From Candidatus Doudnabacteria bacterium (GTDB lineage: Bacteria; Patescibacteriota; Doudnabacteria; UBA920): a DNA stretch of 64,000 bases. The position numbers and the translations under genes are program-made. A model generated the notes under the pieces. That model had not been told where the DNA came from. It saw only the letters and a program-made list of their open reading frames with translations, and searched no databases. The stretch spans positions 73,094-137,093 of the forward strand of contig CAWBGV010000031.1 in assembly GCA_963788395.1 (NCBI GenBank). Reading direction: 5' to 3'. Shown here one piece after another: positions 11,370 through 52,186 of this stretch (position 1 is its first letter; the number at the start of each line of letters is the position of its first letter).

Positions 11370-11375
11370 CTAAAT

Positions 11376-11409
11376 AAGACCTATGGGACCAATTGGTCCT
11401 ATAGGTCTT
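11376..11409. terminator. Bidirectional terminator between convergent ppsA and glnII
   Basis: 15-bp stem AAGACCTATGGGACC / GGTCCTATAGGTCTT (one G-U pair) with a 4-nt loop AATT. Confidence 0.65.
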
Positions 11410-11421
11410 ATTGAAATTAGG

Positions 11422-12573
11422 TTACAAGTTCATCTTTTGCGTATCGGAATTTACCGGAGGCTGCGGCAGCGGGGTGCTTTTGCCGTTTTGGATAATCAGA
11501 TATTTTTCATCATGAAATTCAAAGTTGCTCCAGCCATATTTATCCGGGTCAAAGCCTTCCCCGCAAGTGGTTTCAATTAAGGCAGTACAAATTTGGTAAG
11601 GGTCCAGGTTGGCTGCCGGACGGCGGTCTTCCAAATAGCCGCGGCCCTTGTTGGCCGTATCCATGGGAATGCGAATACTGGCGCCCCGGTCGGAAACTCC
11701 GTAGCGGAAATCATAAATGCTGCAGGTTTCGTGCTTGCCGGTGAGGCGTTTGTCGTTATCCGCGCCATACACCCGCATGTGCTGCTTGTGGAACCGGCCT
11801 AATTTTTCGCAGGTTTTTTTAATGTATTCCAGTCCGCCGGTTTCGCGCATAGGGCGAGTCGAAAAGTTGGTGTGCCCGCCCGCGCCGTTCCAATCACCGC
11901 TCATGGGCTTAGGATCGAGTTTGGCATAGGCGTTATGTTCTTCACCCAAGCGGTATAGTAACCAGCGCGCCAGCCACATTTGGTCCGATATTTCTAATGG
12001 TCCGCCGGCGCCCACTTGAAATTCCCATTGCGCCGGCATTACTTCGGCGTTAATTCCGGAAATCATAATTCCCGCGTCCAAGCAGGCTTTGGCGTGAGCT
12101 TCTACTAATGGCCGGCCATGGACTTCGTCGTAACCGACGCCGCAGTAGTAACGGCCTTGCGGTGAAGGATATCCTTTTTCCGGCCAGCCTAACGGCCAGT
12201 CTTTATCATACAAAGTGTATTCTTGTTCAAAACCAAACCAGGGTTCCTGATCTTTAAATTTTTCCGCTACCTTTGCCAAAACGTGCCGGGTGTTGGAAAT
12301 GTGAGGTGTGCCGTTGGCGTTTAAGACTTCGCACATGACCAAAATATTCGGGTCGCCGTTGATGGGGTCGTTGATATAGTAAACCGGTTTGAGCATGCAG
12401 TCGCTAAAGTGCCCTTCGGCTTGTTCGGTAGACGAACCGTCAAAGCCCCACATGGGGATGTCTTCTATTTTTCTGACCGGGCCATCGATAATTTTTGTTT
12501 TAGAGCGTAACTTGGCCGTGGGCTTTCTGCCGTCCGTCCAAATATATTCCGCCATAATTTTGTTGTTTGGCAT
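11422..12573 (-). CDS. glnII: Glutamine synthetase type II (eukaryote-like GSII)
   Basis: 383 aa. The N-terminus MAEYIWTDGRKPTAKLRSKTKII matches the GlnII AEYIWIDG...AKLRSKT signature, and length fits GSII rather than the 470-aa GSI. Confidence 0.85.
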   Translation of the reverse strand: MPNNKIMAEYIWTDGRKPTAKLRSKTKIIDGPVRKIEDIPMWGFDGSSTEQAEGHFSDCMLKPVYYINDPINGDPNILVMCEVLNANGTPHISNTRHVLAKVAEKFKDQEPWFGFEQEYTLYDKDWPLGWPEKGYPSPQGRYYCGVGYDEVHGRPLVEAHAKACLDAGIMISGINAEVMPAQWEFQVGAGGPLEISDQMWLARWLLYRLGEEHNAYAKLDPKPMSGDWNGAGGHTNFSTRPMRETGGLEYIKKTCEKLGRFHKQHMRVYGADNDKRLTGKHETCSIYDFRYGVSDRGASIRIPMDTANKGRGYLEDRRPAANLDPYQICTALIETTCGEGFDPDKYGWSNFEFHDEKYLIIQNGKSTPLPQPPVNSDTQKMNL

Positions 12574-12637
12574 ACCGTTGTTCCTTTTGGCTACCGTTTA
12601 CCGGGGGTAAATGCAGCGCATAAATTAATGGTAAAAT

Positions 12638-12668
12638 GAAAACCCCGGCCTGAAGCCGGGGGTTTTGC
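12638..12668. terminator. GC hairpin plus T-tract in the divergent glnII/GNAT intergenic region
   Basis: AAAACCCCGGC-CTGAA-GCCGGGGGTTTTG. The position, between two start codons, is odd for a terminator; it may be an attenuator or regulatory hairpin. Confidence 0.35.
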
Positions 12669-12823
12669 TAGAGATTTTGCGGTCGGAATGAGGGTGTAAA
12701 TTCGGTGGGTGTTGGGAGTGCGTTAGGTATCAACATATAGCCAATATAGCAGAGGGTAAAAAAACGCGCAAGTAGTGAAATACAGCAGAAGACAGTTCCG
12801 TAATAGTTTGTTACTATGATGGT

Positions 12824-13252
12824 ATGAAAATGAGAGCTATTAAGCCGAGCGACATCAAAGCCGCGGCTAAAATTATCGAATTAAATTATGCCTCGCAATA
12901 TCGCTGGCTGGACAGGGAAAATATAACGGCGATGTTTAATAATTATATTGGGAAGCCCAAGTATTTAGTGGCCGAAGAAAAAAGTAATATGGTTGGATTT
13001 GCCGGCTATATTGAAACCTGGATGGATTATAGCGTCTACAATATTTTTTGGGTTAATGTAGACCCGGCCCATCAAGGGCAGGGGATTGGGCGGGCCTTGG
13101 TGACAGCAGTGATCAAAATAATCAAAAAGAAAAAAGCCAGCCTGGTCTTACTGACCACTAACCAACCACGTTTTTACAGACAGTTTGGTTTTAAGACGGT
13201 TATGAAGTTTGGGAAAAAAGGATATCTACTCATGGTTCTAAAATTAACTTAA
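12824..13252 (+). CDS. GNAT-family N-acetyltransferase
   Basis: 142 aa with the acetyl-CoA-binding motif QGQGIGRALV in a GNAT fold layout. Confidence 0.8.
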   Translation: MKMRAIKPSDIKAAAKIIELNYASQYRWLDRENITAMFNNYIGKPKYLVAEEKSNMVGFAGYIETWMDYSVYNIFWVNVDPAHQGQGIGRALVTAVIKIIKKKKASLVLLTTNQPRFYRQFGFKTVMKFGKKGYLLMVLKLT

Positions 13253-15581: not shown

Positions 15582-15659
15582 ATAAAATTCACAAATTTAT
15601 AAATTAAGTAAAATTTAATGTCAACCCAGTAATTTTATTTAACTTGTAAATTTATTTTT

Positions 15660-16759
15660 ATGCAAAAATTCTTTATTTCCCTGAAAGCCCTCACCGTTGC
15701 CTCGTTTAAAATGTATTTCCGAATCGCGGAGCGGTTATTTTTACGTTAATTGTTCCGCTGGCACTGTTGGCAGTATTTGGATTTTTGTCTAAAGGCGGCG
15801 CAACTACGATCAAACTCGATGTTACCGATTATGCCCAAACTCAGCTTTCTCAAAATTTTCTAAAGGCGCTTCAAAATGTTTCGGTCTTTAAGGTCCAGCA
15901 AGTCTCGGAAAATCAGGCAGGTTCTGATCTGGGAAAAGGCAATATTGATCTGGAAGTAGTTATACCTAAAAATTTTGGGCAAGCGGGCGCCGCCGGCCAG
16001 CCTAAACCTGCCAGTATTAAAACGTATTATAACCAGGCTAATCCGGCCAACGGGCAAATTGGAAACTTAATCATTACTCAGATTGTTGACGGTATTAATT
16101 CCCAAATTTCTGACGTCCCGCAAATCGTTTCAGTTCAATCTACCGGCGTCCAAACCAACAATTTGGGGTACTTTGATTTTATCTTGCCCGGCATTTTAGC
16201 CATGATCATCATGCAGTCCGGATTGTTTGCCGTGGCTTTTGCCTTTGTTTCGTTTAAAGCCAGCGGGGCTTTGCGCCGTATCCAGGCCACACCGGTACAT
16301 CCGCGAAATTTTATTATTGCTCAAGCAATTACCCGTTTAGTCATGACTTTGATTACCGTGGCAATACTCATCGGTTTCGGCGTAAAGTTTTTTAGTTTCC
16401 ACATGCTGGGGAGTTATTGGGATTTTACCCTTGTGGCAATTTTGGGAATTTTGATATTTTTGGGTTTTGGTTTCGCGATTGCCGGCTATGCCAAAGATGA
16501 AAATCAGGTTGCGCCGCTGGCCAACGTTATCCAGTTGCCCATGCTTTTACTTTCGGGCATCTTTTTTCCGCGCGACGATTTTCCTCACTGGCTGCAAACG
16601 GTGACTAATTATTTTCCGTTAACGTATTTAAGCGATGCCATGCGCCACATTGCTAACGAAGGATTGCACTTGACGCAGATAATGCCGGATTTATTGGGAC
16701 TGATTATTTGGTGCGTTATAGTCTTTGTGATTGCGATTAATTTGTTCCGGTGGGAGTAG
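15660..16759 (+). CDS. ABC-2 family permease, interrupted by a 1-nt frameshift near 15720
   Basis: ATG 15660 gives MQKFFISLKALTVASFKMYFR, then the frame changes (A-run CGAAT at 15720-15724) into NRGAVIFTLIVPLALLAVFGFL..., the first transmembrane helix of ABC-2 permeases. The ORF-track TTG start at 15767 would truncate that helix. Confidence 0.7.
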
Positions 16760-17009
16760 GGGAGGGATGAAACATGAAGCATGCTGTACGGGATTTGGGA
16801 GCTGAATTTTATGACGGATTTAGAGAGGTTGAAGAAAATTTTATATAAGCGACGAAAAAAGCGAATTCCTGCACGGGTCTTAAACCAGCTTAAAGCATTA
16901 CTGTTTCATCCGCTGTTTTGGCCGCCCTTGCCGGCACCGATTTATAAACGTAAATAGGGATTAAAAAAACTCTCCACTGCCGGAGCGTTTATTGATTGGT
17001 ATATTTTAC

Positions 17010-18478
17010 TTATAGAGCTGCCAAATCTATGGTTTGATCAATCCGGACCTGGGCAACAAAATCCGGAACGTGGGAGACCATAAGCAGGGCGCTTTGGTAA
17101 TCACTGAGGGCTTGGGCAATAATAGGTAAATGTCGGAAGTTAATATGATTAGTGGGTTCGTCCAGAATAAGCAGTCCGGGTTGTAGCAAAACCAGCCGAC
17201 AAAACGACAGGAGTCCTTTTTGGCCTTCCGACAGAGCCGCAATGGGTTGATCCAGGAGTTTGCCATCCAGTAAAAAACCCGCGGCGGTGGAACGCAAAAT
17301 GTGCTCATCGAATTTTTGCATAACTTCCTTGAGGGCATCAAAAGCTTTTTGGTCAAAGTTAAAATTGGAGAAATCTTGTTTGTAGTAGCCTATGAGGATG
17401 TCTTTGGCCACTGTAAAACCTTGTCCGGAACCGGCAGTGATTTTTTCCAGCAGGGTGCTTTTGCCGATGCCGTTTGGGCCGGTAATAATTACGTGGGTAT
17501 TTTTTCGTATCGTCATGTCTAGGTCTTTACTGACTACTCCATGTTCACGGATAGCGGAAAGAGAAGAGAACGTTAAAATTTTTCCATCAAAAAATGGGTC
17601 AAATTCTTGACAGGGGATGGTAAATTCGCGGATGGTCTTGTCTTCCCGCCGAACTTCTACCACGCTTTCTTCCGCTGCTTCCGCCGCTTCCCGCATGCGC
17701 TTGGCTACGGCGCGCAGTTTGCCGCCTTTGTGGGCGAAGACTTCGGCTTGGGAACGCTTCTCTTTAATTTCCATTTGCATGCGGGCGTTTTGCAAATTTT
17801 CCCGTTCAATCCGGTTTTTAATTTCTTCGACTACGTCGTAATAGTTCCCGGAGTATTGTTCAATTTTATGGGTAAAGACATCTAAATATAAGACACCATC
17901 GGAAAAGGCGTTGAGAAAATCGGCATCGTGGGAAATAACCACGACAGTTTTTTCGTACATCATCAAAAAGCCGGTCAAATGTTCTATGCCTTGTTGGTCA
18001 AGATTGTTTGTAGGCTCGTCCAAAAGTAAAATATCAGGATTTTGGATAAGCGCGTGCGCCAATAATAATCGCGCCTGCTGTCCGCCGGAAAAATGTTTAA
18101 CGGTTTTTTCTAAAGGCAGATCTACATTTACGACTTCAAACACGTCGCGGATTAACTTATCCAGATTATATTTTTTTTCAGCAAAAGCCGTGGCAAAATA
18201 ATCCCGGACCGATAATTCGGCAAGGTCTTTTGGCATAACTTGTCTGGCGATAGCAATTGAAGCGTCTTTGGGAGTAATCAATATTTCCCCTTAAGTTAGG
18301 TTTGATCTCGCCGGTAATCATTTTTAAAGAGTGTGGATTTTCCCGCGCCGTTCTGTCCCATAAGCGTGACTCTGCTGCCGCTGCGAACGCTAAAACTCGC
18401 CTCTTCCAAAACAGGTTTGTTGTGCCCGTACTCAAACGTGACGTTTGAGAATCTTAAAATAACGTTATCGTTAGCCAT
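17010..18478 (-). CDS. ABC-F family ATPase (EttA/Uup/YheS-like, tandem ABC domains), two frameshifts near the N-terminus
   Basis: Three ORF pieces (18296..18478, 18178..18435 and 17010..18281) read GQNGAGKSTLFK | MITGEIKPNLR | GEILITPKDASIAIARQVMPKDLAELSVRDYF... The breaks are at a TTTTT run (18321-18325) and a CCCC run (18287-18290). There is a second Walker A ITGPNGIGKST and signature FSGGQQARL. Confidence 0.85.
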
Positions 18479-18854
18479 ATAGTAAAAAAGAAACCCCGCT
18501 GATGGGGTGAAAAACTATATTGATTGTAGCAGCTTAACCGCCTCCGGTCAATCAAAATAAAACCCGCCACAAAGAGGGGTTTTTGGTCACAGTAGGCCAC
18601 AGCTTGACTTAAATATCGTAGCACATTGGTTTTTTATGTCAATATCTGGTGGACAGCATAGCTTCCGAGTTAAATCATATCTGGGACTACGTTTGGCGTT
18701 GGTATCCTTGGGTCAAAGAGTTAGAAACGGCCAATGTTGCTGGGTAATTTGGCGTGTTTAGGTCACACATGCCAGTATTTAAACGCTAAAATTTAGGCTT
18801 TTAATGCTTCTGTGCCGACTTTTTCTATAAGTCTTATAAATTTTTGCGCAGCTT

Positions 18855-20022
18855 CTAGTCCTGTTCAGCATCTTCTTTCTTGAATTGCTCCCATTGGTGA
18901 ACCCCCGCGTTTCTTTTCTTTCTCACAAGCAGTTTCCAATTTTTATGCTCTTCCGCGCCATCAAATGTTACGATCGGTAATTTCTTTTTTTCTCGCAAAA
19001 TATTAATATTTTCCTGCAACCTCAAAATTCTGCTGCCAGTTGTTAAAAATCCTTTCTTTTTGCGAGCAAGCTTTTGAGCTTTGGTAGAGTCTTCATCTAG
19101 CATTTCTTCAATTTCGCTTGCCTTTATACCTTGCAATTCCAAAGCGCCAACTTGATAACAAGTTAGAACGGCCATTTCCACAGCAGTGTCAAAATCAACA
19201 ATGCAAATTCTATAATCTTTATCCATTGCTATTCTTTCTAATCCGGCTAACAAAATCTGATTAAATATTCAATGCTATAAGCGCCTGCACCACCAGCAAC
19301 TAGAGACATAAGCCCATCAGCAGGAATTATCAGCTTTTACATTCATTAAAAGCGGAGAACTGATTCGTCCTTGGACAAGAGGTATGGCATCTTGTTCCAT
19401 ATTCGGAACCATGGGGAAAGGTTGAAATTTTCTTTGTGATATTAACTTTGGTGACAAAAGTTCAATTGTTGATTTGGTTTTATCATCATCACTAAATACA
19501 CTGATATAAACACAAGTATAAAAGGTTAAATCACTGTCTTCCGACAAAAATTTGTTATAGTAATCATGAGATGTGTGTTTGTATGCCAACAAAAATTTGT
19601 TAAAAAAATTTATTGTAGTAGTTCTTAAAAATTAGCTATTGGTTGGGTTAGACCAGGCCGAATCTATGTCATTGATGGAAAAAATAATAGCAATTTCTGA
19701 AAAAAACCATGGGTAAAAAACTTTACCAGCTTCTCCAGCAATGATATGGAATATTGGCTGATCACATCCTCCCCGGATCCGACTAACTCCGCATTTTTTG
19801 AATTTTTTGGAGTAATAGGTTCAAGTGCAATGCGTTGTTGAGCACTGTCAGTTCTCTCGCTTCTTAATAAATTGCTTTTATCAAAAATCTGATTTTTCCT
19901 TCTTTCGATAAGATCTGCACCAAGCCTACTTCCTCGGCACCAACGGCAACAGGATAAAATCCATCGGGAACACCGATGTGAAATGGATAGTCGAAAACTA
20001 TTTTGACAAAGCCTGGTCTCAT
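18855..20022 (-). pseudogene. Degenerate SLOG/LOG-like (Rossmann-fold, PGGxGTxxE-type) gene in several frame-shifted pieces
   Basis: Pieces read MRPGFVKIVFDYPFHIGVPDGFYPVAVGAEEVGLVQILSKEGKIRF... | ...LLRSERTD...HGFFQKLLLFFP | ...DAIPLVQGRISSPLLMNVK | LIIPADGLMSLVAGGAGAYSIEYLIRF | LLAGLERIAMDKDYRICIVDFDTAVEMAVLTCYQVGALE... The ADGLMSLVAGGAGAYSIEYL..LAG...MDKDYRICIVD segment parallels the LOG-family DaFIaLPGGfGTlEEl...qLg.h.kP..llN motif. Breaks are at A4/T4 runs (19251-19254, 19336-19339). Confidence 0.3.
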
Positions 20023-20174
20023 AAAATTTATATATAAAGAATAGCTCTTATTTAAGAGAAAGTAAAAGGCTTGTGGAGTTAATTGTGTTTAAAATACCAA
20101 TATTTCTGTAAATTTGACAGGATTTTTACGTCTGCTATAATATAACAAAATTGTTATATTAGTAAACAAAACTA

Positions 20175-20547
20175 ATGTCAGCGTTGGAAACATCCTTCAA
20201 AGTAGAGTTTTTTACAACTGCTGCCGGCAATAATCCAGTTTGGGGAGTCTACAGAAGATTTACCTCCCGAAGAATTTAAGTATTTTGATCGCGCTATTAC
20301 GCGCTGTCAGACGTTACCTTTGTCTAACCTGTTTAAATGTGGTTACTTGGAAAAAATGTCAGGCTTTGATTTGTATGAACTTCGTATAAGTGTTAAAAAC
20401 AAAATTTACCGAATACTGTGTGTAATAAAAGACGCAGTTATTTGGTTTTTAAATGTGTTTCAAAAGAAAAGTCAAAAAATTAAACAAAAAGAAATAAATA
20501 CGGCCCTCGAGCGTTTTAAGCAATTAAAACTATTGGGACAATACTAA
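20175..20547 (+). CDS. HigB-like (Gp49/DUF891 RelE-ParE superfamily) toxin, 1-nt frameshift at a GGGG run
   Basis: ATG 20175 gives MSALETSFKVEFFTTAAGNNPVW, then a shift at GGGG (20242-20245) into ESTEDLPPEEFKYFDRAITRCQTLPLSNLFKCGYLEKMSGFDLYELRISVKNKIYRILCVIKDAVIWFLNVFQKKSQKIKQKEINTALERFKQL, the Gp49-like ...YRI.y..dg..iilLh.F.KK.QKtP..EI..A..R motif. Confidence 0.6.
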
Positions 20548-20548
20548 T

Positions 20549-20815
20549 ATGAACTACAATGAACTGAAAAATAAAATATTGAGCAAGCCTGCTTTTAAAG
20601 ATTCTTTAAAAGCTGATTTAGATTTTGAAATAAGCCAAATGATTATTGATGCACGTCTAATGAGAGGTCTTACCCAAAAACAATTAGCCGGTATTGTAGG
20701 AACAAAGCAACCTAGTATCGCAAGAATTGAAAGTGGCTCTTTATTGCCATCCCTGAGCTTTTTAGAAAAAATCGCGAAAGCCTTAGAAACTAATTTAATT
20801 CCCCCCAAAGTTTGA
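20549..20815 (+). CDS. HigA-like XRE-family HTH antitoxin
   Basis: 88 aa: LTQKQLAGIVGTKQPSIARIESG. It starts 1 nt after the toxin stop, the toxin-first order typical of higBA. Confidence 0.7.
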   Translation: MNYNELKNKILSKPAFKDSLKADLDFEISQMIIDARLMRGLTQKQLAGIVGTKQPSIARIESGSLLPSLSFLEKIAKALETNLIPPKV

Positions 20816-20985
20816 ATTAACTGAAAATTTAAAAGTAAAAACAACTTCAATTACTCCTCAAGCTATTCAGGCATTCCCAACCCCTGTGCAGATTAATTAT
20901 TACCTTTTGGTGATACCAGAAATTCGTTCTGTAAGGCAAGTTGAGAGAAAAGTGTTGTTTTTTAATCCTAATTAAACTATATTTT

Positions 20986-21363
20986 ATGAAAAAAATTGAT
21001 AACTTTGGAATAAAACATATTTGGACTATTCTTTGCTCAAACAGTAGCATTGATCAAAACACTAACAATGTTTCTTTGTTTAATGTTATTGAGCAAGTAG
21101 AATTACAAGCATTCGATAAGAAAAAAATCAATGAAAAACAAGAGAAAGGAATACCTTTAAATTGTGAACTTATATCCTTATGGAATAGAAAAGATAATGC
21201 CAAAAAAGGTTATGAAGAAAAGGTGGAATTTGTAGATCCAGCCGGGGCAATTTTAAACACTATCGAAACCCCATTAAAAATACCTGATAATATCCAAAGC
21301 TTTAGAATGACCTTTCGAAATTATGGGGTTAAAAGTCACTACTGCTGGAGAATATTGTTTTAA
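20986..21363 (+). CDS. Hypothetical protein (AT-rich orphan)
   Basis: 126 aa from MKKIDNFGIKHIWTILCSNSS.... It has no recognisable motif, and its codon usage matches the AT-rich island. Confidence 0.3.
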   Translation: MKKIDNFGIKHIWTILCSNSSIDQNTNNVSLFNVIEQVELQAFDKKKINEKQEKGIPLNCELISLWNRKDNAKKGYEEKVEFVDPAGAILNTIETPLKIPDNIQSFRMTFRNYGVKSHYCWRILF

Positions 21364-21811
21364 AATTAGCGCTAGAGAGAACAAGAAGGATAGTTTCATT
21401 GAAGTTGCCACCTTGCCTCTTAGGATTGTTATAAAATAATTTAAATTTAAAACACGTCTGTAACATGGCTAGTTTTTGGTATGTGTTTGTATGGTGAAAA
21501 TAGTTAATGAAATCACCATTTCGCTTGAAAATATAAGACTTATTCGAAATTTGCTGAAATCCAAAACCATACAAAAACATACACTTTTTGCGTTACATAT
21601 AAATTTTCTGAGTGTGTTGTGGGTCGGTTCCGGAAGTTCCTATTTTCCTTACAAAAAATGAGGTTTAAAGGAATTTTGGCAAAATCTAAAACGACACAAA
21701 AAAACACACTTTTACCATGGTAGCACACTAAATTCTTGGTTTTTCGCTATGGACTTTTCCTCAAATTTTTGTTAAAGTATTGAGGCACAGAAAAAGGAGG
21801 ACTAGAACCGA

Positions 21812-22666
21812 ATGTCACGTCGTAATAAGGACAAACGCGAAAAAAGTCAGCATCAGAAAAAGCAGGCTGCGGTAATGAACACAGCGGCTAGTGAGCTTGT
21901 TGTGAATATGCTGAGCGGTGCTAGCAATCCTTTGGTTGCTATCACTCTCATTGGACCAAGACCCACCGTGCAAGGCATCCCACTCAGTCGTTCCATGGGC
22001 TGTGTTGTGGAACGGCAAAACAACGGACTTCGTTTGGTAATGACCTGTCGTCATGCTTTCGAGAACTTACGCAATGGCTACAGGCTCTCGTTGCAATGCA
22101 AGGCCCAAGTCGGCTGCCAACACCGTTGGAGGTGATTGGTCAGCCCATTGAAGATACGGAGCCGGAGAGCGATGTAGCTTTTCTGCTAGTCAGGGATCGT
22201 TTGAATTTGCCCACACGGCCATTTGTGGTCGAGCAGGTAGATCCCGAATTTCATGACATGCAGATTCTCTACAATGCCGCTAACCGTTGCGACCCACTGT
22301 CACGCGTGTATGATGTTTTCGTTGCAAGGCAGGGGGTGAAAGAGCGGGCACCGATGTTTTTGCAAGATGTCAATCAGAACCACAGAAATCGTTCCCGCAG
22401 AGGACACGACGAAGCAAGAAGATTTACGGCATCAAGGCTGGATTTCTTGCCGGATGTTTCAGATGCACAGCCGGAGTGGTTTCTCGGGCAGCCCGGTATG
22501 GGACGAACAACTCCGACTCTACGGAATGGATGTGCGGGGAACCTCTCCTGGCGACGGAATGCATGCCACAATGGGTGACGTCCTTATTTGTCTGCCAACG
22601 AGCGAGCTGCATGCTGCGCGTCAGAGAGTGGAGCCTCAACTCCAACAACTGCTTGCTTCATTGTGA
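21812..22666 (+). CDS. Trypsin-like (S1 family) serine peptidase, split into three frames
   Basis: Strong SD AAAAAGGAGG before ATG 21812. His box MTCRHAF (ORF 21812..22135), Asp box ESDVAFLLV (ORF 22096..22578) and Ser box GFSGSPVW (ORF 22367..22666) form a chymotrypsin-fold catalytic triad in the right order. The N-terminus is basic (RRNKDKREKSQHQKKQ). The coding region is visibly more G+C-rich than the flanks. Confidence 0.55.
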
Positions 22667-22689
22667 TCGCCATTTCGGTTTCAACTTTG

Positions 22690-22723
22690 GTCACCGCTGC
22701 TTTACTGGGCGGTGACTTTTTTA
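22690..22723 (+). terminator. Rho-independent terminator after the protease gene
   Basis: GTCACCGC-(11 nt)-GCGGTGAC followed by TTTTTTAT. Confidence 0.7.
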
Positions 22724-23100
22724 TCCCCAAATCGTTCAGTTGATTTAGAATTTTATAACTTATATTCTTGTAATAGGTTTCTTTTCAAACTTTATAGTTT
22801 AGTCTGATTTGTTCTCAATAGGACTACTTTACGCAAACTCTTTGCGTGGGTAGTCCTTTTTATTTTAGGCAATAACGCAATGGGTAATAAAGTCCGTTTT
22901 TTGCTCGGCAGGTTGCCAATACCCATTGCACCTGTCTGGCCAAGAGCGGATTTTTAAATTAAAACACAAATTTATGTTAACAATTGAGCAATGTCGGGAA
23001 ATAATTGGCAATACTGCGATATCCGACAGCGAACTTGAACAATTACGCAATAGCCTGTATAGTATCGCCGATTTGATAATTAAACGCACTGTGGGCGAAG

Positions 23101-24690
23101 ATGCCGAAGAAAGTTCAAACCATAATTGAATATAAGCGTGCGTTAATTTATTGCCGGGTTTCCAGTGAGCGGCAGGTTAACGAAGGCCATGGTCTTGATA
23201 GCCAAGAGCAGCGGTGTATTCGCCGTGCTTCAGATATGGGTTTGGAAGTGGCAAAAGTGTTTCGGGACGAGGGAGTATCCGGTGGTTTGTTTGACCGGCC
23301 GGCAATGCAGCTGCTTATAAAGTATCTGGATGCACGTCTACACGAAAATTTTATTATTATCTTTGACGACTTAAGCCGTTTTGCAAGGGATGTGCAAGTT
23401 CACATACAACTTAAAAGCGAACTCATTTCCAGAGGCGCAAAACTGGAGTGTTTAAATTTAAAATTGGAAGATACGGCAGAGAGTGAGCTGGTAGAAATTA
23501 TTTCCGCAGCTACGGCGCAGTATCAACGCAAGACCAATAAAAGGCAAGTTATTCAAAAAATGAAAGCCCGGCTGGAAATGGGCTATTGGACATTTTGTCC
23601 GCCACCAGGCTTAAAGTTCTGCAAAGACGCGGCCAAGGGGCAAATTTTGCGCCCCCATGCGCCACAATCTGTAATCTTTAAGGCTGCAATAGAGAAATAC
23701 CGCGACTTTGAGTTAAATACGCTTGAGGAGATTCAGCAGTTTATAATTGCGCAATATCGGCTTAACGGGCTTAATAAATCTATTTCTATAAGTGGCGTTA
23801 AAAGGCTGCTTACCAATGTTTTATATGCCGGCTGTGTGGAATACGAGCCGTGGGGTATTCCGCTTGTAAAAAATGTCCATGAAGGCTTTATTTCCTACGA
23901 AACTTTTCTTGCAGTGCAGGATCGGCAAAATAATGCGAGTAAGCCAAGAATCCGTAAAGACCAGAACATGGATTTTCCTTTACGTAATTTATGTTATTTG
24001 CGAAAGTTGTAAGCATCCTTTTACCGCGGCGTGGTTTAAGGGTAGAAAAGAAATTTATGGATATTATTTATGTAAGCAGCAAGGTTGCTCCCTTAAAAAT
24101 AAAACAATTAATGCGGATATTGTTGAAGCTGACTTTGTTAAATTGCTAAAACGAGTGTCACCAAGCCCGGAAGTTCTAAAATTGGCTGAAAAAGTTTTGG
24201 TAGATTTATGGGAAAGCCAAAGGAAAAACGAAGGACAGGTCAAAGCGGCATTTTAGCGCAGCTGAGTAAACTAGAAACTCAAAATAAAACTTTGGTGGAA
24301 AGAATTGCAAAAGCTACCGCTGACGGCTTGGTTGCTGAATACGAAAAGACTATTGCGCAAAACGTGGCAGAAATTAAAAACCTGCAAAAAGAACTCGATA
24401 AAACAAAATACTCCCAGGACGGGTTTCAAACCGCAGCGGGAGCAGTATTCGAATATCTTTCAAAACCGTTAGAACAGTGGCAAACCCGCGACTACGCAGG
24501 CAAACGGCTGTTACTCGGTATGTATTTTGAGCAGAAAGTTGCTTATAACCGTGAATTTGGTTTTCAAACCGCTCAAATTCCTTTTGTCCTTGCGACAATC
24601 CAGCAAGAACACGTGTCTAAAAATCATCTGGTGGACCGGACGGGAATTGCACCGCAAACCATGATGTCAAGCTGTGGTCCGTCACTGTGA
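23101..24690 (+). CDS. Large serine recombinase (resolvase/invertase catalytic domain + recombinase domain + zinc ribbon + coiled coil), two frameshifts
   Basis: ORF 23101..24012 has ALIYCRVSSERQ...GHGLDSQ (catalytic Ser), ORF 23873..24256 has CESCKHPF...YGYYLCKQQGC (zinc ribbon), and ORF 24208..24690 has the coiled-coil tail. Together they make about 530 aa. Breaks are at T runs (about 23975-23990, and TTTT at 24251-24254). Confidence 0.85.
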
Positions 24691-24863
24691 CCCGGCCCAT
24701 GTAGTAATATCGTAATACAACGACACCAAAGAAATTTTTAAAAAAAGATAAATTAGACTTTATCTTTTGTGGATAAGCTCAAAGGAGTCTACCTTAAGTG
24801 AAAAATATTTACGGATCGAGGAAAAAGCGCTATACTAAATTTAGAAATATTAAAAAAATTACT

Positions 24864-25406
24864 ATGGAAACCAAAGATAAAGAGTGCTGCGGGCATGACT
24901 GCTGTCATAATCATAACCATCACAGCCCGGTGTGGCGATTAATTAAGGCTTTTACAGCCGTGATTGTTATTTTATTTGTACTTCTAATTGGTGTGGCAGT
25001 TGGCCGCAAGAGTTCTGAGTGGAGCGGGAATATGAGCGTAAGCATGTATAAAAATGGTGGCATGACCGCGACCAGTATGGGTGTCCCGCCGGCAAACATG
25101 CTCTATCTGCAGGGAAATCTCGGGCGGATGGCGACCAGTACCGCGACCCCGGTTATGGGCTACCAAAAAATAGACCCAAACGCCACTGAAGTGGCCGGAG
25201 TTATTGATTCGGTAAGCGGGACAGAAATAACATTAACGGACAATGGCGGCAGTCAGCAAATGATATATACTTCTGGTTCCACTATTATAACCGCTGCCAG
25301 CGGCGAAATACCGGTCTCGGCCCTCAAAACCAAGGAATTTATTGTAGCTATGGTTACCGCCGCCGACGGCAAGAGCACTGCAGAAACCATTCAAGTTCAG
25401 CCTTAA
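24864..25406 (+). CDS. Membrane-anchored protein with a Cys/His-rich N-terminal metal-binding-like motif (hypothetical)
   Basis: METKDKECCGHDCCHNHNHHSPVW, one transmembrane helix (LIKAFTAVIVILFVLLIGVAV), then a Thr/Ser/Gly-rich extracytoplasmic domain. Confidence 0.4.
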   Translation: METKDKECCGHDCCHNHNHHSPVWRLIKAFTAVIVILFVLLIGVAVGRKSSEWSGNMSVSMYKNGGMTATSMGVPPANMLYLQGNLGRMATSTATPVMGYQKIDPNATEVAGVIDSVSGTEITLTDNGGSQQMIYTSGSTIITAASGEIPVSALKTKEFIVAMVTAADGKSTAETIQVQP

Positions 25407-25617
25407 ATTTTTTAACAAACAATAAAAGACTTCTTCCGGGAAGTCTTTTATTGTACCCAGAAGGATATCAATGGCCACAACAGTCAGTAATTTTTTTAGC
25501 ATCTATGAATGTTGAGGGTTTTGGATGCGGTGGAAAGTAGGGACAAAGCTAATGTAAAGTTAACTTGACACATGCGGATTCGTCGTATATACTAAAGTTA
25601 CTAAAGAAAGGAGCTTT

Positions 25618-26016
25618 ATGAGCGATACAAAAATGTCAGTGAACGAAGAAGAATTAAAGAAAAAGCTAACACCGGAGCAATATCATATTTTACGCGAAAA
25701 GGGCACAGAGGCGCCGTTTACCAGTCCGTTGGTGGATATGCATGAAAAAGGGATGTTTACTTGCGCGGTTTGCGGTAATCAATTATTTGCTTCCGACGCT
25801 AAATTTGATTCCGGTACCGGCTGGCCAAGCTTTGACCAGGCTATCCCCGGCGCCGTAGAATTGCACGACGATAGCTCTATGGGGATGCACCGGACCGAGG
25901 TCACTTGCGCCCGCTGCGGCAGCCACTTGGGACATGTCTTTGACGATGGCCCTTCGGAAACTACGGGACAGCGGTACTGTATTAATGGGGCGTGTTTAAT
26001 TGTAAAGAAGGAGTAA
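25618..26016 (+). CDS. msrB: Peptide-methionine (R)-S-oxide reductase
   Basis: 132 aa with two CxxC pairs (CAVCGNQL..., CARCGSHLGHVF) and the catalytic RYCINGA motif. Confidence 0.9.
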   Translation: MSDTKMSVNEEELKKKLTPEQYHILREKGTEAPFTSPLVDMHEKGMFTCAVCGNQLFASDAKFDSGTGWPSFDQAIPGAVELHDDSSMGMHRTEVTCARCGSHLGHVFDDGPSETTGQRYCINGACLIVKKE

Positions 26017-26145
26017 AGGTAAAGATACGAAATTCGAAATACGGAACAAATTTCAAATTTCAAATTTCAAAAGTGGTTTTAGATTTATTATTTAATATTT
26101 AAACATTGTTTAGGATTTCGTATTTCGATATTAATTATTCATTCT

Positions 26146-27849
26146 ATGCTCCAAATTCTCTTTGCCTTTCTTGCGGGTATCCTGACTATTGCCGCCCCTT
26201 GCATTTTACCAATGCTTCCCATAATCCTCGGCGCTTCTGTCGGTCAGCAGAACCGCCAGCGACCATTGTTAATAGTAGCCGGTTTTATTGTTAGTTTTGC
26301 GGCCGCGAGTTTATTATTATCGGCTTTAGTCACTCACCTTAATCTTTCGCCCAATGTTTTACGGGATGTAGCCGTAATTTTGCTGCTGATATTCGGTCTG
26401 TTGATGGTTTGGCCGGGTCCGTTTGAACGCTTAACCGCACTGTTTAACGGTTCGATTAATAAAGCTAACGCGCTTGGCGGCGGCCAAGGTAATTGGGGTG
26501 CTTTGGTTTTAGGGCTGGTTTTAGGAATTGTTTAAAGGCCCTGCGCCGGTCCAATATTAGGAGCAATTTTAACCCTTATAGCTACTCAAGGCTCTACAGC
26601 CCATGCTTCGGTTTTGCTCATTGCCTATGCTATTGGCGCCGGGGTACCTATGCTGATTATTGCTTACGGCAGCCAGTGGATTACCACCAAAGTTCGGGGC
26701 ATAGCCCGATATTCGGTTCGGTTACAGCAAATTTTTGGAGTCTTGGTTATTTTATTGGCCGTGGCTATGTTTTTTCAATACGACACCAGAATTGAATTGG
26801 CTCTAACCGCCGCGTTTCCTCAATCAAGCTTAGAAGACCAGCTGGTGCAGAAAAAGCTAATCCTTTTGCAACTAATACTCCGCCGCCGTTGCCGGCAACT
26901 CCGGCGTCTACAATGCGGCGACCGGCCAACTGTCGGCGCCGCAGCACTGTTGAGCAAATTCCACTCCAGAATTATGGGAAAGCGCCGGAATTCACGGGGA
27001 TTGACCACTGGCTCAACTCTCCGCCGCTGACTATGAGCCAGCTGAAAGGTAAAGTCGTGCTGGTGGATTTTTGGACGTACTCTTGCATTAATTGTATTCG
27101 AACTTTGCCGTATGAACCACGTGGTACAACAATTATAAAGATGATGGCCTGGTAGTGGTCGGCGTGCATACGCCGGAATTTGCTTTTGAAAAAGATACCG
27201 GCAATGTCGAAAATGCCATCAAACAATTTAATATTTTGTATCCGGTGGCTCAAGATAACGAGTACGGGACTTGGAACGCCTTTAATAACGAATATTGGCC
27301 GGCGGAGTACCTGATAGACCAAAACGGCAATATTGTCTACGAACACTTTGGCGAAGGGGAATATGATCATACTGAAAACGCCATTCGCGAATTGCTGAAT
27401 ATGACCCCGAACGTCGCGCCCAATAACGGCCAAAACCTTTCCGGAGTGGAATCGCCGGAAATGTACTTTGGAACTGACCGGGTCCAGTATCTCACTCCGG
27501 CTCAAACCCCCTCCGCTGCGGCCCAAACGTATACGTTACCGGGCAGTTTGGCTTTGAATAATTTTGCCCTGGGTGGTTCCTGGGAATTTAACTCCAGTAT
27601 GCCCAGTTAGCCGGCGATCAGGGCACGGTGGAGCTGCATTTTCATTCTGGCCAGGTCAATATGGTAGCCGCCAGCAGCGGGGCGCCGGTTACTTTAAATA
27701 TAGTGGTTGACGGCAAAACTCAGCCCTCTGTTACCGTCCAAGCCTCGCAACTCTACACTCTTTTTAATTCTCAAGATTATTCTGATCATACTATAGAAAT
27801 TTCCATCCACGGCCAGGGCTTCCAAGCCTTTACCTTTACGTTTGGCTAA
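26146..27849 (+). CDS. DipZ-like fusion: CcdA/DsbD transmembrane domain + TlpA-like thioredoxin domain + C-terminal beta domain, with 5 reading-frame lesions
   Basis: CcdA motifs APCILPMLP and (after an in-frame TAA at 26533-26535) RPCAGPILGAIL. A Pro/Thr-rich linker is reached by a shift at an A5 run (26851-26855). The thioredoxin core is LKGKVVLVDFWTYSCINCIRTLPY (CxxC), followed by WYNNYKDDGLVVVGVHTPEFAFEKD after a shift near 27112-27125. The tail ...QYAQLAGDQGTVELHFHSG... is reached by a shift at a CC run (about 27593-27596). Confidence 0.7.
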
Positions 27850-27885
27850 TTTGGGGATTAATGATAGCATGGTAATGGACGACGT

Positions 27886-28086
27886 ATGGCCAATTTACAG
27901 AATCAAATTAAAAAAATGCGCAACGAAAAAAATATCACCCAGCAGGATTTGGCTGACGCTGTGGGGGTTTCGCGGCAGACGATTGTGGCCATCGAAAAAG
28001 GCAACTACATTCCTTCCTTGGTGCTGGCTATGCAATTAGCTGGTTTTTTTAAGGTCAGCGTCGAAAAATTATTTTATATCTTATGA
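27886..28086 (+). CDS. XRE/Cro-type HTH transcriptional regulator (YozG-like)
   Basis: 66 aa: [23 protein letters not shown]. Confidence 0.75.
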
Positions 28087-52149: not shown

Positions 52150-52186
52150 ATAATATTAAATTAAAGCAATTAAAAAAGCGCCCGAG
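52150..52186 (-). terminator. GC hairpin plus T6 downstream of the 52244..52723 gene (minus strand)
   Basis: The minus strand reads CCCGGCATCTGGCACCCTCGGGCGCTTTTTT. Confidence 0.45.

What the first reader, a model, noticed from the sequence alone, without database searches (positions are those of the whole stretch)
18480..24720. AT-rich island of about 6 kb bounded by a large serine recombinase, carrying TA, protease and SLOG-like genes
Base composition drops abruptly after the ABC-F gene and recovers after the recombinase. Within it lie:
- a multiply disrupted SLOG/LOG-like gene
- an intact-looking HigB/HigA pair
- an orphan 126-aa ORF
- a repeat-rich leader
- a G+C-rich trypsin-like protease gene with its own strong SD and terminator
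- a roughly 530-aa large serine recombinase at the edge

This is the architecture of a small integrative element or defence island: recombinase at one end, addiction module, candidate anti-phage effectors. The SLOG-like protein plus the protease is not a combination I can assign to a named defence system, so it may be undescribed.
Basis: partly seen in the sequence, partly recalled or inferred. Interest (0 to 1): 0.7.

Follow-up and report, generated by a model that had tools for sequence, protein, structure and literature searches.

The report
Small serine-recombinase island with defence cargo
This is a roughly 6-kb mobile-looking insert in a Doudnabacteria-like (CPR) genome, carrying a large serine recombinase, a toxin-antitoxin pair, a HEPN-type RNase (not a SLOG protein) and a stand-alone HtrA-like protease; it is an ordinary kind of genomic islet and nearly all its genes are frameshifted as read.

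Summary

- **Composition.** Only 18.75-21.8 kb is AT-rich (31-36% GC against 45% overall). The protease gene is 52% GC and the recombinase 42.6%.
- **Disruption.** HigB, the 126-aa ORF, the protease and the recombinase are all frameshifted. Only HigA and a small ORF upstream of the recombinase are intact.
- **Cause of the frameshifts.** The flanking host genes (ABC-F, CcdA-thioredoxin) are broken too, often at homopolymers, so poor sequence quality is the likelier cause. This is unresolved.
- **Integrative-element reading.** Supported in outline. The block is bracketed by a unique 24/27-nt inverted repeat plus an 11-nt direct repeat. The recombinase is a phage-integrase/Ccr/XisF-type large serine recombinase. 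A full-length homologue in another CPR contig ends inside a tmRNA gene. The same HEPN family rides on such recombinase islets and sits in a type I R-M operon elsewhere.
- **"SLOG + protease" system.** Not supported. The two genes never co-occur elsewhere.

Verdict: new member of a known kind, modest interest.

The parts
17010..18478 (-). Left flank: host ABC-F ATPase gene, broken by two single-base insertions (about 18325 and about 18292)
   Evidence: Pfam ABC_tran x2. 84% identical to intact Doudnabacteria orthologues. The nucleotide alignment shows two +1 insertions.
18493..18555 (-). Host ABC-F promoter (TTGACC-17-TACAAT, 18551-18523) and 5'-UTR hairpin with T-run (18508-18493). Marks the minimum extent of host DNA.
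   Evidence: Promoter and terminator scan. The same promoter-plus-hairpin layout occurs upstream of ABC-F in L001-L003.
18585..18608 (.). Left arm of the bracketing inverted repeat, GGTCACAGTAGGCCACAGCTTGAC. Candidate attB half-site or element terminus.
   Evidence: 12-nt perfect core, 24/27 overall, unique in the window.
18644..18654 (.). Left copy of the 11-nt direct repeat ATCTGGTGGAC. On the minus strand this reads GTCCACCAGAT, resembling the 3' end of an acceptor stem plus CCA.
   Evidence: exactly two perfect copies in 64 kb; direct matches of 11 nt or more occur in 4.3% of control flank pairs.
18793..20022 (-). Disrupted gene for a beta-rich N-terminal domain plus HEPN protein (about 410 aa). 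It has 5 frame changes (about 19895, 19770, 19330, 19262, 18860) and one in-frame TAA (about 19632).
20114..20159 (+). higBA promoter (perfect TTGACA-16-TATAAT with a TG extension, 20114-20141) overlapping the palindrome ATATAACAAAATTGTTATAT (20140-20159), a likely HigA operator.
   Evidence: 12 of 12 promoter match. The palindrome was read.
20176..20547 (+). HigB-like toxin gene (Gp49/DUF891, RelE/ParE superfamily) with one frameshift near 20240.
   Evidence: phrog_2523.
20549..20815 (+). HigA-like XRE-HTH antitoxin gene, intact, 88 aa.
   Evidence: HTH_3, E=9e-13. (Y4mF and HipB-type antitoxin models, weak).
20986..21439 (+). Small ORF of unknown function: 125 aa plus about 25 aa in another frame, with a frameshift near 21335.
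   Evidence: Only sub-threshold DUF6941 (E=0.039). Nothing in PADLOC, PHROGs or NCBIfam.
21441..21794 (+). No evidence of function.
21795..22714 (+). Autonomous protease cassette: Shine-Dalgarno AGGAGGA (21795-21801), ORF 21812-22666 (285 aa after repair; frames +2/+1/+2 with a -1 near 22092 and a +1 near 22347), and a terminator-like hairpin 22695-22714.
22974..23129 (+). Small intact ORF overlapping the recombinase start. A homologue precedes each of the related recombinases in L092 and L096. Candidate accessory or directionality factor.
   Evidence: L096 ORF 5513-5731, similar ITVDQARKILG motif. (L092 10781-10963, E=1e-7).
23101..24690 (+). Large serine recombinase gene: 529 aa after repair, frames +1/+2/+1, with shifts near 23988 and 24245. 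Catalytic motif YCRVSSERQ.
   Evidence: Resolvase, Recombinase, Zn_ribbon_recom..
24626..24660 (-). Right copy of the 11-nt direct repeat (24626-24636) plus a stretch resembling the 3' end of a tRNA or tmRNA gene (T-loop, acceptor, CCA). It encodes the recombinase C-terminal 'VDRTGIAPQ'.
   Evidence: 18 of 26 nt identical to the tmRNA 3' end that the L092 recombinase overlaps. No intact tRNA or tmRNA.
24666..24692 (.). Right arm of the bracketing inverted repeat, GTCAAGCTGTGGTCCGTCACTGTGACC. It contains the recombinase stop codon.
24798..25406 (+). Right flank: host gene for a Cys/His-rich membrane protein, followed by msrB (25618-26016).

Best explanation
Window 18.6-24.7 kb is a small (about 6.0-6.1 kb) integrative islet of the large-serine-recombinase type. 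It sits in an intergenic site of a Doudnabacteria-like CPR genome, between the ABC-F promoter and a membrane-protein gene.

**Mobility module (right end).** It consists of a small conserved ORF (22974-23129) and a 529-aa serine recombinase. The recombinase reading frame runs into the junction.

**Lineage (inferred).** The element belongs to a lineage that targets the 3' end of tmRNA or tRNA genes. Here it sits at a secondary site that shares only 11 nt with that target. The bracketing 24/27-nt inverted repeat is most simply the two halves of a palindromic host site (attB-like half-sites).

**Cargo: four unrelated, self-contained modules of different base composition**
1. A single-gene HEPN RNase with a novel beta-rich N-terminal domain. 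By analogy with RAZR, ApeA and AbiJ, I infer an N-terminal sensor that unleashes RNA cleavage and aborts infection.
2. A higBA toxin-antitoxin pair with a consensus promoter and a palindromic operator. I infer island maintenance or abortive infection.
3. A 150-aa unknown protein.
4. A cytoplasmic HtrA-like serine protease without a PDZ domain. It travels as a cassette running from its Shine-Dalgarno site to its stop codon.

The HEPN protein and the protease are not partners.

**State of the genes.** As the sequence reads, every module except HigA and the small ORF is frameshifted, so the element is inert. The same indel pattern also breaks conserved host genes on both sides. I therefore think a stretch of low-quality sequence (about 60%) is more likely than real decay (about 40%).

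**Shown:** gene identities, the HEPN fold and motif, the protease fold and catalytic triad, the recombinase type, the repeats, and the contexts of homologues.

**Inferred:** mobility, the attachment-site assignment, the defence role, and the cause of the frameshifts.
For: **Recombinase**
- Pfam Resolvase E=4.8e-23, Recombinase E=2.4e-5, Zn_ribbon_recom E=1e-4.
- It aligns over residues 13-499 to phage serine integrases.
- XisF, CcrB and CcrC are the best NCBIfam models.

**Related recombinases elsewhere**
- The L092 recombinase (10987-12585) is a full-length homologue. It overlaps the 3' end of a tmRNA gene (12493-12897) next to smpB. Its C-terminal VEMGGIEPP is the translated tmRNA T-arm, and the window has VDRTGIAPQ at the same place.
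- The L090 recombinase ends inside tRNA-Gly.
- A small ORF is conserved upstream of the recombinase in L092 and L096.

**Boundaries**
- Unique inverted repeat 18585-18608 / 24666-24692 and direct repeat 18644-54 / 24626-36. Both occurring together has an empirical chance of 0.27%.
- The host ABC-F promoter and hairpin are conserved in relatives up to about 18555.

**HEPN protein**
- 17 full-length homologues.
- RNxxxH is invariant.
- Weak Csx1/Csm6-HEPN, DUF4145, Swt1 and RiboL-PSP HEPN hits.
- Contexts: after hsdS in a type I R-M operon; in recombinase islets; beside Shedu SduA_C and DUF4238.

**Protease**
- Foldseek probability 1.0 to Deg/HtrA/DegS.
- His, Asp and Ser aligned; Asp and Ser invariant, His missing from one member through a deletion.
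- Solitary in its other contexts.
- Nucleotide homology is limited to 21795-22660.

**Other**
- No island gene lies near ABC-F in 80 relatives.

**Literature**
- DUF4145 is a HEPN family linked to R-M systems (PMC3710099).
- RAZR is a single-gene abortive-infection RNase with a DUF4145 HEPN domain (PMC13017515).
- ssrA-specific islands in Dehalococcoides are moved by a CcrB-like 540-aa serine recombinase (PMC3146451).
Against: - No empty site, no second copy of the element and no excision junction could be found, so mobility is unproven.
- No intact tRNA or tmRNA lies at either end. This held even after trying every single-base edit. The link to tRNA and tmRNA gene ends therefore rests on 30-35 nt and on a protein motif.
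- The inverted repeat and the direct repeat give boundaries that differ by about 40 nt on each side. I cannot say which marks the crossover, and neither is overwhelmingly significant alone (1.3% and 4.3%).
- The recombinase is broken as read.
- The defence role of the HEPN protein is by association only. PADLOC has no model for it.
- Nothing indicates what the protease or the 150-aa ORF does.
- The compositional mosaic could equally come from stepwise accretion at a hotspot without element mobility.
Confidence: 0.6

Rival explanations
1. Decayed remnant. The frameshifts are real, and the islet is a dead, non-mobile relic whose recombinase, toxin, HEPN RNase and protease have all been inactivated. 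This is a variant of the best explanation, differing only in the state of the genes.
For: - At least 11 frame changes and one in-frame TAA lie within 6 kb.
- The rest of the window carries long intact ORFs of up to 967 codons, so errors are not uniform.
- Toxic cargo such as HEPN RNases and HigB is commonly inactivated.
Against: - Highly conserved host genes on both sides are broken in the same way. ABC-F has two insertions 30 nt apart while being otherwise 84% identical to intact orthologues. CcdA-thioredoxin has at least 4 frame changes.
- 8 of 13 located shifts fall at homopolymer runs of 4 or more.
- Correct frames stay open and conserved (60-75% identity to homologues within shifted segments). 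There are no larger deletions and only one nonsense codon. That is unusual for real decay.
Confidence: 0.4
2. Variable defence hotspot, not an element. The genes accumulated piecemeal at a recombination-prone intergenic site. The recombinase is a leftover of an unrelated event, and the bracketing repeats are a host terminator palindrome plus chance.
For: - The composition is a mosaic: 31-36%, 52% and 42.6% GC.
- The protease travels as a single-gene cassette.
- The HEPN family also occupies an rplS-to-3D-domain-gene hotspot with or without a recombinase (L090 against L093/L094).
- Joining the two inverted-repeat arms gives a strong hairpin.
Against: - The recombinase ORF ends exactly inside the right repeat arm.
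- Its homologues sit at tmRNA or tRNA junctions.
- The direct and inverted repeats co-occur at the two edges (0.27%).
- The same recombinase plus small-ORF module recurs in other islets.
Confidence: 0.2
3. One reading: the disrupted gene (as a SLOG-like sensor or nucleotide-binding protein) and the trypsin-like protease form an undescribed two-gene anti-phage system.
For: - Both lie in the same islet.
- Neither matches a PADLOC model.
- Each family is rare: 17 homologues of the disrupted gene and 9 of the protease among 5.8 billion proteins.
Against: - The SLOG assignment fails. There is no Pfam hit, the GGAG motif is not conserved, the N-terminal domain is all-beta, and the C-terminal domain is HEPN.
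- The genes are on opposite strands, 1.8 kb apart, with higBA and another ORF between them.
- They never co-occur in the 5 plus 4 other contexts examined.
- They differ by 16 points of GC.
Confidence: 0.03
4. Prophage remnant. The recombinase is a phage integrase and the protease a phage (prohead-type) protease left after deletion of the rest of a prophage.
For: - The closest characterised relatives of the recombinase are phage serine integrases.
- Gp49-type HigB and XRE repressor-like genes are common in prophages.
Against: - There are no structural, replication or lysis genes.
- PHROGs gives nothing for the protease, the HEPN protein or the 150-aa ORF.
- Neither family is found in IMG/VR contigs.
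- The protease fold is HtrA-like rather than a prohead protease fold.
Confidence: 0.07

Closest known systems
ssrA-specific genomic islands of Dehalococcoides, moved by the CcrB-like large serine recombinase DsiB (PMC3146451), and more generally SCC elements (CcrAB/CcrC)
   Same: - A recombinase of about 530-540 aa with resolvase, recombinase and zinc-ribbon domains sits at the edge of a small cargo island.
- A full-length homologue of the window recombinase (L092) is integrated at the 3' end of ssrA next to smpB.
- CcrB and CcrC are among the best NCBIfam models.
   Different: - No ssrA gene is present at the window element. Only a fragment of about 35 nt resembling a tRNA or tmRNA gene end, and an 11-nt repeat, are there.
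- There is no second small serine recombinase (DsiA/CcrA). A 52-67-aa ORF precedes the recombinase instead.
- The island is far smaller (6 kb), and the host is a CPR bacterium.
- All matches are far below the equivalog cut-offs.
Phage-type large serine integrases (A118, TP901-1, Paenibacillus phage integrases)
   Same: Domain order and length. The alignment covers residues 13-499 at about 24% identity, and the catalytic serine motif is present.
   Different: - There is no phage around it.
- Attachment sites were not determined.
- The ORF is frameshifted twice as read.
Single-gene HEPN abortive-infection proteins: RAZR (zinc finger + DUF4145 HEPN; PMC13017515), ApeA and AbiJ (N-terminal domain + HEPN; PMC3710099)
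   Same: - A variable N-terminal domain is followed by a C-terminal HEPN domain with Rx4-6H.
- The gene stands alone.
- It is found in R-M operons and defence islands.
   Different: - The N-terminal domain is a beta-rich domain of about 260 residues with no Pfam, PADLOC or PDB match.
- The HEPN part does not reach the curated threshold of DUF4145 or of any other HEPN Pfam family.
- No activity or phage phenotype is known.
- The window copy is disrupted.
HigBA type II toxin-antitoxin modules (Gp49/DUF891 toxin + XRE-HTH antitoxin)
   Same: - Toxin-first gene order, with a one-base gap between the genes.
- A consensus promoter with a palindromic operator.
- Pfam Gp49 and HTH_3 hits.
   Different: The toxin gene carries a frameshift near codon 22 as read.
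HtrA/DegP/DegS family (S1C) serine proteases
   Same: Chymotrypsin fold (Foldseek probability 1.0, TM about 0.5), an aligned His-Asp-Ser triad (Asp and Ser invariant) and a GxSGSP motif.
   Different: - No PDZ domain and no signal peptide or membrane anchor. There is a basic helical N-terminal extension instead.
- About 15% identity to the structural matches.
- The family has only 9 known members, all in CPR-like metagenome contigs.

Membership tests
Large serine recombinase (phage-integrase / Ccr / XisF type) | N-terminal resolvase catalytic domain with the serine nucleophile | tested here: met
   PF00239, E=4.8e-23, residues 14-162. Motif YCRVSSERQ.
Large serine recombinase (phage-integrase / Ccr / XisF type) | Recombinase domain followed by a zinc-ribbon domain and a long C-terminal region, 450-700 aa in total | tested here: met
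   PF07508, E=2.4e-5 (above its cut-off). PF13408 scores 23 bits against a cut-off of 25.3 (just below). 529 aa after repair. Aligns over 13-499 to phage integrases.
Large serine recombinase (phage-integrase / Ccr / XisF type) | Uninterrupted reading frame | tested here: not met
   Frames +1/+2/+1, with shifts near 23988 and 24245. May be a sequence error.
Large serine recombinase (phage-integrase / Ccr / XisF type) | Defined attL and attR with a shared central dinucleotide; recombination activity | not testable with these tools
   Only candidate repeats were found.
SLOG / LOG (Rossmann-like nucleotide-binding) superfamily | Three-layer alpha/beta Rossmann-like fold with a conserved glycine-rich GGxGT-type motif | tested here: not met
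   No Pfam hit at E<=1. The GGAG of the window copy aligns with GSGG, LSGP and similar in homologues. The model has an all-beta N-terminal domain and a helical C-terminal domain.
HEPN superfamily | Four-helix up-and-down HEPN core | tested here: met
HEPN superfamily | Rx4-6H catalytic motif | tested here: met
   R373, N374 and H378 are invariant in 17 homologues and present in the window copy as RKKRNAGVH.
HEPN superfamily | RNase activity | not testable with these tools
   No experiment was possible.
Pfam DUF4145 (one HEPN family) | Score above the curated gathering threshold (23.1 bits) | tested here: not met
   The window fragment scores 20.6 bits (E=4.7e-4). Only 1 of 17 homologues hits, at E=0.083. 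The family is a divergent HEPN clade, not a DUF4145 member by Pfam's rule.
HigBA type II toxin-antitoxin | RelE/ParE-superfamily toxin (Gp49/DUF891) encoded upstream of an XRE-HTH antitoxin in one operon | tested here: met
   PF05973, E=4.4e-13. PF01381, E=9.2e-13. Genes are 1 nt apart. Promoter at 20114-20141.
HigBA type II toxin-antitoxin | Intact toxin reading frame | tested here: not met
   The frame changes near 20240. The ATG at 20176 runs into a stop after 35 codons (read directly).
HtrA/DegP (S1C) proteases | Chymotrypsin fold with a His-Asp-Ser triad | tested here: met
   Foldseek E about 1e-7, probability 1.0. H in TCRH, D119 and S226; D119 and S226 invariant, the His segment deleted in one of nine members. 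Pfam Trypsin_2 scores 26.7 bits against a cut-off of 27.6.
HtrA/DegP (S1C) proteases | One or more C-terminal PDZ domains and export to the envelope | tested here: not met
   283 aa ending right after the protease domain. No PDZ hit. The N-terminus is basic and helical, not a signal peptide. So it has the fold of HtrA but is not a family member in the strict sense.
Genomic island integrated into a tRNA or tmRNA gene (Islander type) | Intact tRNA or tmRNA gene at one junction and its displaced 3' fragment as a direct repeat at the other | tested here: not met
   No tRNA or tmRNA in the window by ARAGORN or Rfam, even with relaxed thresholds and all single-base edits. Only an 11-nt repeat and a fragment of about 35 nt resembling such a gene's 3' end are present. 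The homologous element in L092 does meet this feature.
Any named anti-phage system in PADLOC 2.0 | Match of the HEPN protein, the protease or the 150-aa ORF to a system model | tested here: not met
   only weak matches to the HEPN region of Csx1/Csm6 (best E=1e-4, 7 of 17 members). Nothing for the protease.

The most novel reading that the evidence does not exclude
The beta-rich N-terminal domain plus HEPN family (about a dozen 50%-identity clusters among 1.84 billion representatives, so far seen only in metagenomic contigs, the identifiable ones CPR-like) is a new single-gene abortive-infection RNase. Its N-terminal domain would be a previously unseen sensor. It would spread among ultra-small CPR bacteria on miniature serine-recombinase islets that target tmRNA and tRNA genes, and by insertion into type I R-M operons.
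Probability: 0.35. Interest if true: 0.45.

Novelty: new member of a known kind. Interest (0 to 1): 0.3.

Why it matters
Mobile elements and defence systems of CPR/Patescibacteria are poorly catalogued.

**What this locus and its relatives show**
- 6-kb islets driven by a large serine recombinase, some sitting in tmRNA or tRNA genes, ferry defence-type cargo in these reduced genomes.
- A rare, unnamed HEPN family is singled out that would be a reasonable candidate for a new single-gene abortive-infection protein.

**What is ordinary**
- The islet architecture itself is a known kind.
- The specific hypothesis that made the finding look exciting, a SLOG plus protease system, does not hold.

**Practical lesson**
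The window contains a 12-kb stretch (about 15.6-27.9 kb) dense in single-base indels. Calls of 'pseudogene' or 'intact' there cannot be trusted without the reads.

Tried and rejected
1. **Empty-site comparison.** I fetched 80 ABC-F loci from GTDB species representatives, with 10-kb flanks. None shares neighbours with the window beyond ABC-F itself, so attL and attR cannot be defined that way.
2. **Other copies of the element.** The metagenome scan with the recombinase gave one 68% relative (L096). It is cut inside the recombinase and has different cargo.
3. **Source contig.** Exact-protein look-ups of window proteins failed. Cluster look-ups gave no accession.
4. **Hidden tRNA or tmRNA at either edge.** ARAGORN at relaxed thresholds, all 3,056 single-base edits, and Rfam at E<=10 on the two edges found nothing. 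I rejected my own attempt to fold 24629-24707 as a tRNA-like molecule.
5. **Recombinase att-type symmetry.** I looked for a second, inner inverted repeat (P and P' arms). Only a weak AAACCA/TGGTTT pair turned up, off-centre by 7 nt, which is not convincing.
6. **'Leader' RNA upstream of the protease.** No Rfam hit, z=-1.75, and no conservation in L081-L083.
7. **N-terminal domain of the HEPN family.** Foldseek against PDB gave nothing below E=0.08. The AFDB library was unavailable.
8. **Phage origin of the cargo.** There are no relatives in IMG/VR and no PHROG hits.
9. **Att repeats around the L090 and L092 recombinases.** This was meant to calibrate core length. Nothing above chance was found.
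10. **The MsrB homology search.** It only served to place the organism and used one of three searches.

Full report
**Organism and setting.** The window is 45.1% G+C.
- Its ABC-F protein is 84% identical to that of Candidatus Doudnabacteria MAGs.
- Its MsrB is identical to a protein from a 144,954-bp NCBI/ENA contig, and the next relatives are Patescibacteria.
- So this is a CPR (Patescibacteria) genome. No tRNA, tmRNA or Rfam family is detected anywhere in the 64 kb.

**Checking the observation: composition.**
- Low G+C (31-36% in 1-kb windows, more than 2 SD below the mean) is confined to 18,751-22,000.
- By segment:

| Segment | G+C |
|---|---|
| Disrupted minus-strand gene | 36% |
| higBA | 34% |
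| Small ORF | 31% |
| Spacer | 33% |
| Protease gene | 52% |
| Recombinase gene | 42.6% (close to the genome average) |

- The 'AT-rich island of 6 kb' is therefore a compositional mosaic. Only the left half is AT-rich.

**Checking the observation: gene integrity.** Almost nothing here is intact as read.
- The minus-strand gene 18793-20022 passes through frames -2/-1/-3/-1/-3/-2 and has one in-frame TAA.
- HigB changes frame near 20240.
- The '126-aa ORF' continues in another frame to 21439.
- The protease runs +2/+1/+2. The recombinase runs +1/+2/+1.
- Only HigA (20549-20815) and a small ORF (22974-23129) are uninterrupted.

**The same damage affects the host genes on both sides.**
- ABC-F carries two single-base insertions 30 nt apart, where four relatives are intact.
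- The CcdA/DsbD-thioredoxin gene at 26146-27849 is spread over at least four frames.
- Elsewhere the window has long clean ORFs of up to 967 codons.
- Eight of thirteen located shifts lie at homopolymer runs of four or more.
- Within shifted segments the correct frame stays open and 60-75% identical to homologues.
- This pattern fits a stretch of poorly polished sequence covering about 15.6-27.9 kb better than it fits decay of an island. I put that at about 60:40. It can only be settled with the reads.

**The 'SLOG-like' gene.**
- I stitched the frames into a 394-aa protein. It found 17 full-length homologues of 387-438 aa, 32-45% identical, none with a Pfam domain.
The invariant positions are FDYPF, YPW, FN..L..YR, YIS.F, R.F..YP, LL..LER, DY..I..FDTAV and W....R..RN...H.
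- An AlphaFold model built from the 17-sequence alignment (pLDDT 77, pTM 0.67) has an all-beta N-terminal domain (residues 8-120), a mixed middle region, and a helical C-terminal domain.
- The invariant R373-N374-x3-H378 is the HEPN Rx4-6H motif.
- Sequence methods see only sub-threshold HEPN signals: DUF4145 at 20.6 bits on the window fragment, plus Swt1-HEPN, RiboL-PSP-HEPN and the HEPN part of Csx1/Csm6.
- Foldseek finds nothing for the N-terminal domain.
- A profile search of 1.84 billion cluster representatives finds 19 proteins at E<1e-10, about a dozen of them full length. Some 70 weaker hits mostly match only the C-terminal (HEPN) part.
- The SLOG assignment is rejected. The gene encodes a member of a rare, unnamed HEPN family with a novel N-terminal domain.

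**Contexts of that family.**
- L084-L089: directly after hsdS in a type I R-M operon (hsdR, hsdM, AAA ATPase, hsdS).
- L090: in a small islet with a 491-aa serine recombinase, between rplS plus a tRNA array and a 3D-domain gene.
- L093/L094: at the same rplS-to-3D-domain-gene site, without a recombinase.
- L092: in an island with two serine recombinases, a Shedu SduA_C protein and DUF4238, next to tmRNA and smpB.
- L095: among cell-wall genes.
- No neighbour is conserved, so it behaves as a single-gene module of defence islands.
- This matches what is described for HEPN/DUF4145 genes (R-M association, PMC3710099) and for RAZR, a single-gene abortive-infection RNase with a zinc finger and a DUF4145 HEPN domain (PMC13017515).
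- The mechanism I infer is an N-terminal sensor releasing HEPN RNase activity. That is analogy, not evidence.

**The protease.**
- The repaired 285-aa protein has only nine homologues, typically 283 aa, with a best identity of 70%.
- The His (TCRH), Asp (ESDVAF) and Ser (GFSGSP) of a chymotrypsin-type triad are aligned; Asp and Ser are invariant, while one member (P0124) has a deletion across the His segment.
- The model (pLDDT 85) matches Deg/HtrA/DegS proteases with probability 1.0.
- There is no PDZ domain and no signal peptide. The N-terminus is a basic helix.
- In other contigs the gene is solitary among housekeeping genes. One copy sits next to tRNA-Glu. None lies near the HEPN family or a serine recombinase.
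- Nucleotide homology between copies runs only from the Shine-Dalgarno site to the stop codon (21795-22660). Each copy has its own terminator hairpin. In all three other loci examined the gene is 2 to 6 points more G+C-rich than the contig fragment that carries it.
- It is thus an autonomous single-gene cassette. Its function is unknown.
- The 370-nt 'leader' upstream is not conserved, is barely repetitive, and does not fold better than shuffles.

**The recombinase and the edges.**
- The repaired 529-aa protein has Resolvase, Recombinase and zinc-ribbon domains.
- It aligns over residues 13-499 with phage serine integrases. XisF, CcrB and CcrC are its nearest NCBIfam models. It is not a housekeeping resolvase.
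- A 68% relative (L096) and a more distant full-length homologue (L092, 10987-12585) are each preceded by a homologue of the small ORF 22974-23129.
- The L092 recombinase overlaps the 3' end of a tmRNA gene by 93 nt. Its C-terminal VEMGGIEPP is the translated reverse complement of the tmRNA T-arm.
- The window recombinase has VDRTGIAPQ at the same position. It is encoded by a sequence 18/26 identical to that tmRNA end and finishing in ...GTCCACCA on the opposite strand.
- The L090 recombinase ends inside tRNA-Gly.
- Serine-recombinase islands at ssrA are known from Dehalococcoides (PMC3146451).
- In the window, however, there is no intact tRNA or tmRNA at either edge.

**Repeats at the two edges.**
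- An 11-nt direct repeat, ATCTGGTGGAC, lies at 18644-18654 and 24626-24636. These are the only two perfect copies in the window.
- Outside them lies a unique imperfect inverted repeat: 18585-18608 GGTCACAGTAGGCCACAGCTTGAC and 24666-24692 GTCAAGCTGTGGTCCGTCACTGTGACC. It has a 12-nt perfect core and 24/27 overall.
- In 3,000 control pairs of flanks 6 kb apart, a direct match of 11 or more occurred in 4.3%, an inverted match of 12 or more in 1.3%, and both together in 0.27%.
- Host sequence extends at least to 18555, because the ABC-F promoter and 5'-UTR hairpin are laid out as in relatives.
- Joined together, the two inverted-repeat arms would form a long hairpin. I read them as the halves of a palindromic host site. 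I read the 11-mer as the short identity with the element's usual tRNA or tmRNA gene target. I cannot decide which marks the crossover.
- The insert is therefore 18609-24665 or 18655-24636, about 6.0 kb either way.

**higBA.**
- A perfect TTGACA-16-TATAAT promoter (20114-20141) overlaps the 20-nt palindrome ATATAACAAAATTGTTATAT (sequence).
- It is followed by the Gp49-type toxin gene and, one base later, the XRE-HTH antitoxin gene.
- This is a standard autoregulated HigBA layout, apart from the toxin frameshift.

**Comparison with relatives.**
- None of the 80 ABC-F loci contains a homologue of any island gene. The block is therefore not a conserved part of the locus.
- Their other neighbours differ too, so no empty site can be shown.
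- Neither cargo family occurs in IMG/VR contigs. PHROGs recognises only HigB and HigA. A prophage remnant is unlikely.

**Verdict.**
- The locus is best explained as a small serine-recombinase islet carrying independent cargo modules: a HEPN RNase, higBA, an unknown ORF and an HtrA-like protease.
- It is a new member of a known kind of element.
- What remains mildly interesting is the rare HEPN family with a new N-terminal domain, and the picture of miniature recombinase islets at tmRNA and tRNA genes in CPR genomes.
- Interest 0.3.

Noticed in passing
window 15600-27900: Single-base frameshifts are concentrated in this 12-kb stretch. They hit host genes as well as the island: ABC-F 17010-18478, CcdA/DsbD-thioredoxin 26146-27849 in at least 4 frames, and possibly the N-terminus of the ABC-2 permease at 15767. 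Most of the other 50 kb has long intact ORFs. This suggests a locally low-quality or poorly polished part of the assembly.
   Followed up: partly
window 18493-18555 (minus strand): The ABC-F gene has a promoter followed by a G+C-rich hairpin and a T-run immediately before its start codon. The same layout occurs in Doudnabacteria relatives (L001-L003). It looks like a transcription attenuator of the kind that regulates antibiotic-resistance ABC-F genes.
   Followed up: partly
window 51400-60750: A second accessory stretch with low coding density: MazG-like (53510-53821), RadC (54629-55288), Phd/YefM antitoxin (55676-56059) with an overlapping ORF, NERD nuclease (57820-58536), dienelactone hydrolase (58629-59375), and an AT-rich segment at 59250-60750 (34% GC). 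Some adjacent ORF pairs (53922/54118, 57279/57820) may be frameshifted as well.
   Followed up: partly
L092 10715-12897: A CPR metagenome contig holds a small ORF plus a 532-aa serine recombinase whose last 93 nt overlap the 3' end of a tmRNA gene next to smpB. The recombinase C-terminus (VEMGGIEPP...) is encoded by the tmRNA T-arm and acceptor on the opposite strand. The same contig has a second recombinase, a Shedu SduA_C gene, DUF4238 and the HEPN family member P0132.
   Followed up: partly
L090 3837-10160 and L093/L094 (rplS to 3D-domain gene): The interval between rplS (followed by a tRNA array) and a 3D-domain gene is a variable hotspot in two related CPR genomes. Both carry the HEPN-family gene. 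One has a serine recombinase, an HTH gene and small ORFs. The other has GIY-YIG, HTH_SB and a 358-aa ORF.
   Followed up: no
L083 4197-5262: One protease homologue (P0124) lies 170 nt downstream of a tRNA-Glu gene, in a gap otherwise free of genes, between transporter genes and the mraZ-ftsI cluster. This is consistent with the protease cassette being inserted DNA there too. P0124 has a deletion across the catalytic-His segment.
   Followed up: no
window 24864-25406: The gene right of the island encodes a protein with a Cys/His-rich N-terminus (CCGHDCCHNHNHH), one transmembrane helix and a weak DUF5666-like C-terminal domain. It is followed by msrB and the CcdA-thioredoxin gene, a possible metal or redox-stress cluster.
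   Followed up: no
window 19535-19609: A 45-nt-spaced imperfect duplication inside the HEPN-family gene corresponds to the repeated protein motif NKFL...NKFL. This motif is conserved in homologues, so it is a feature of the protein and not a DNA repeat element.
   Followed up: yes
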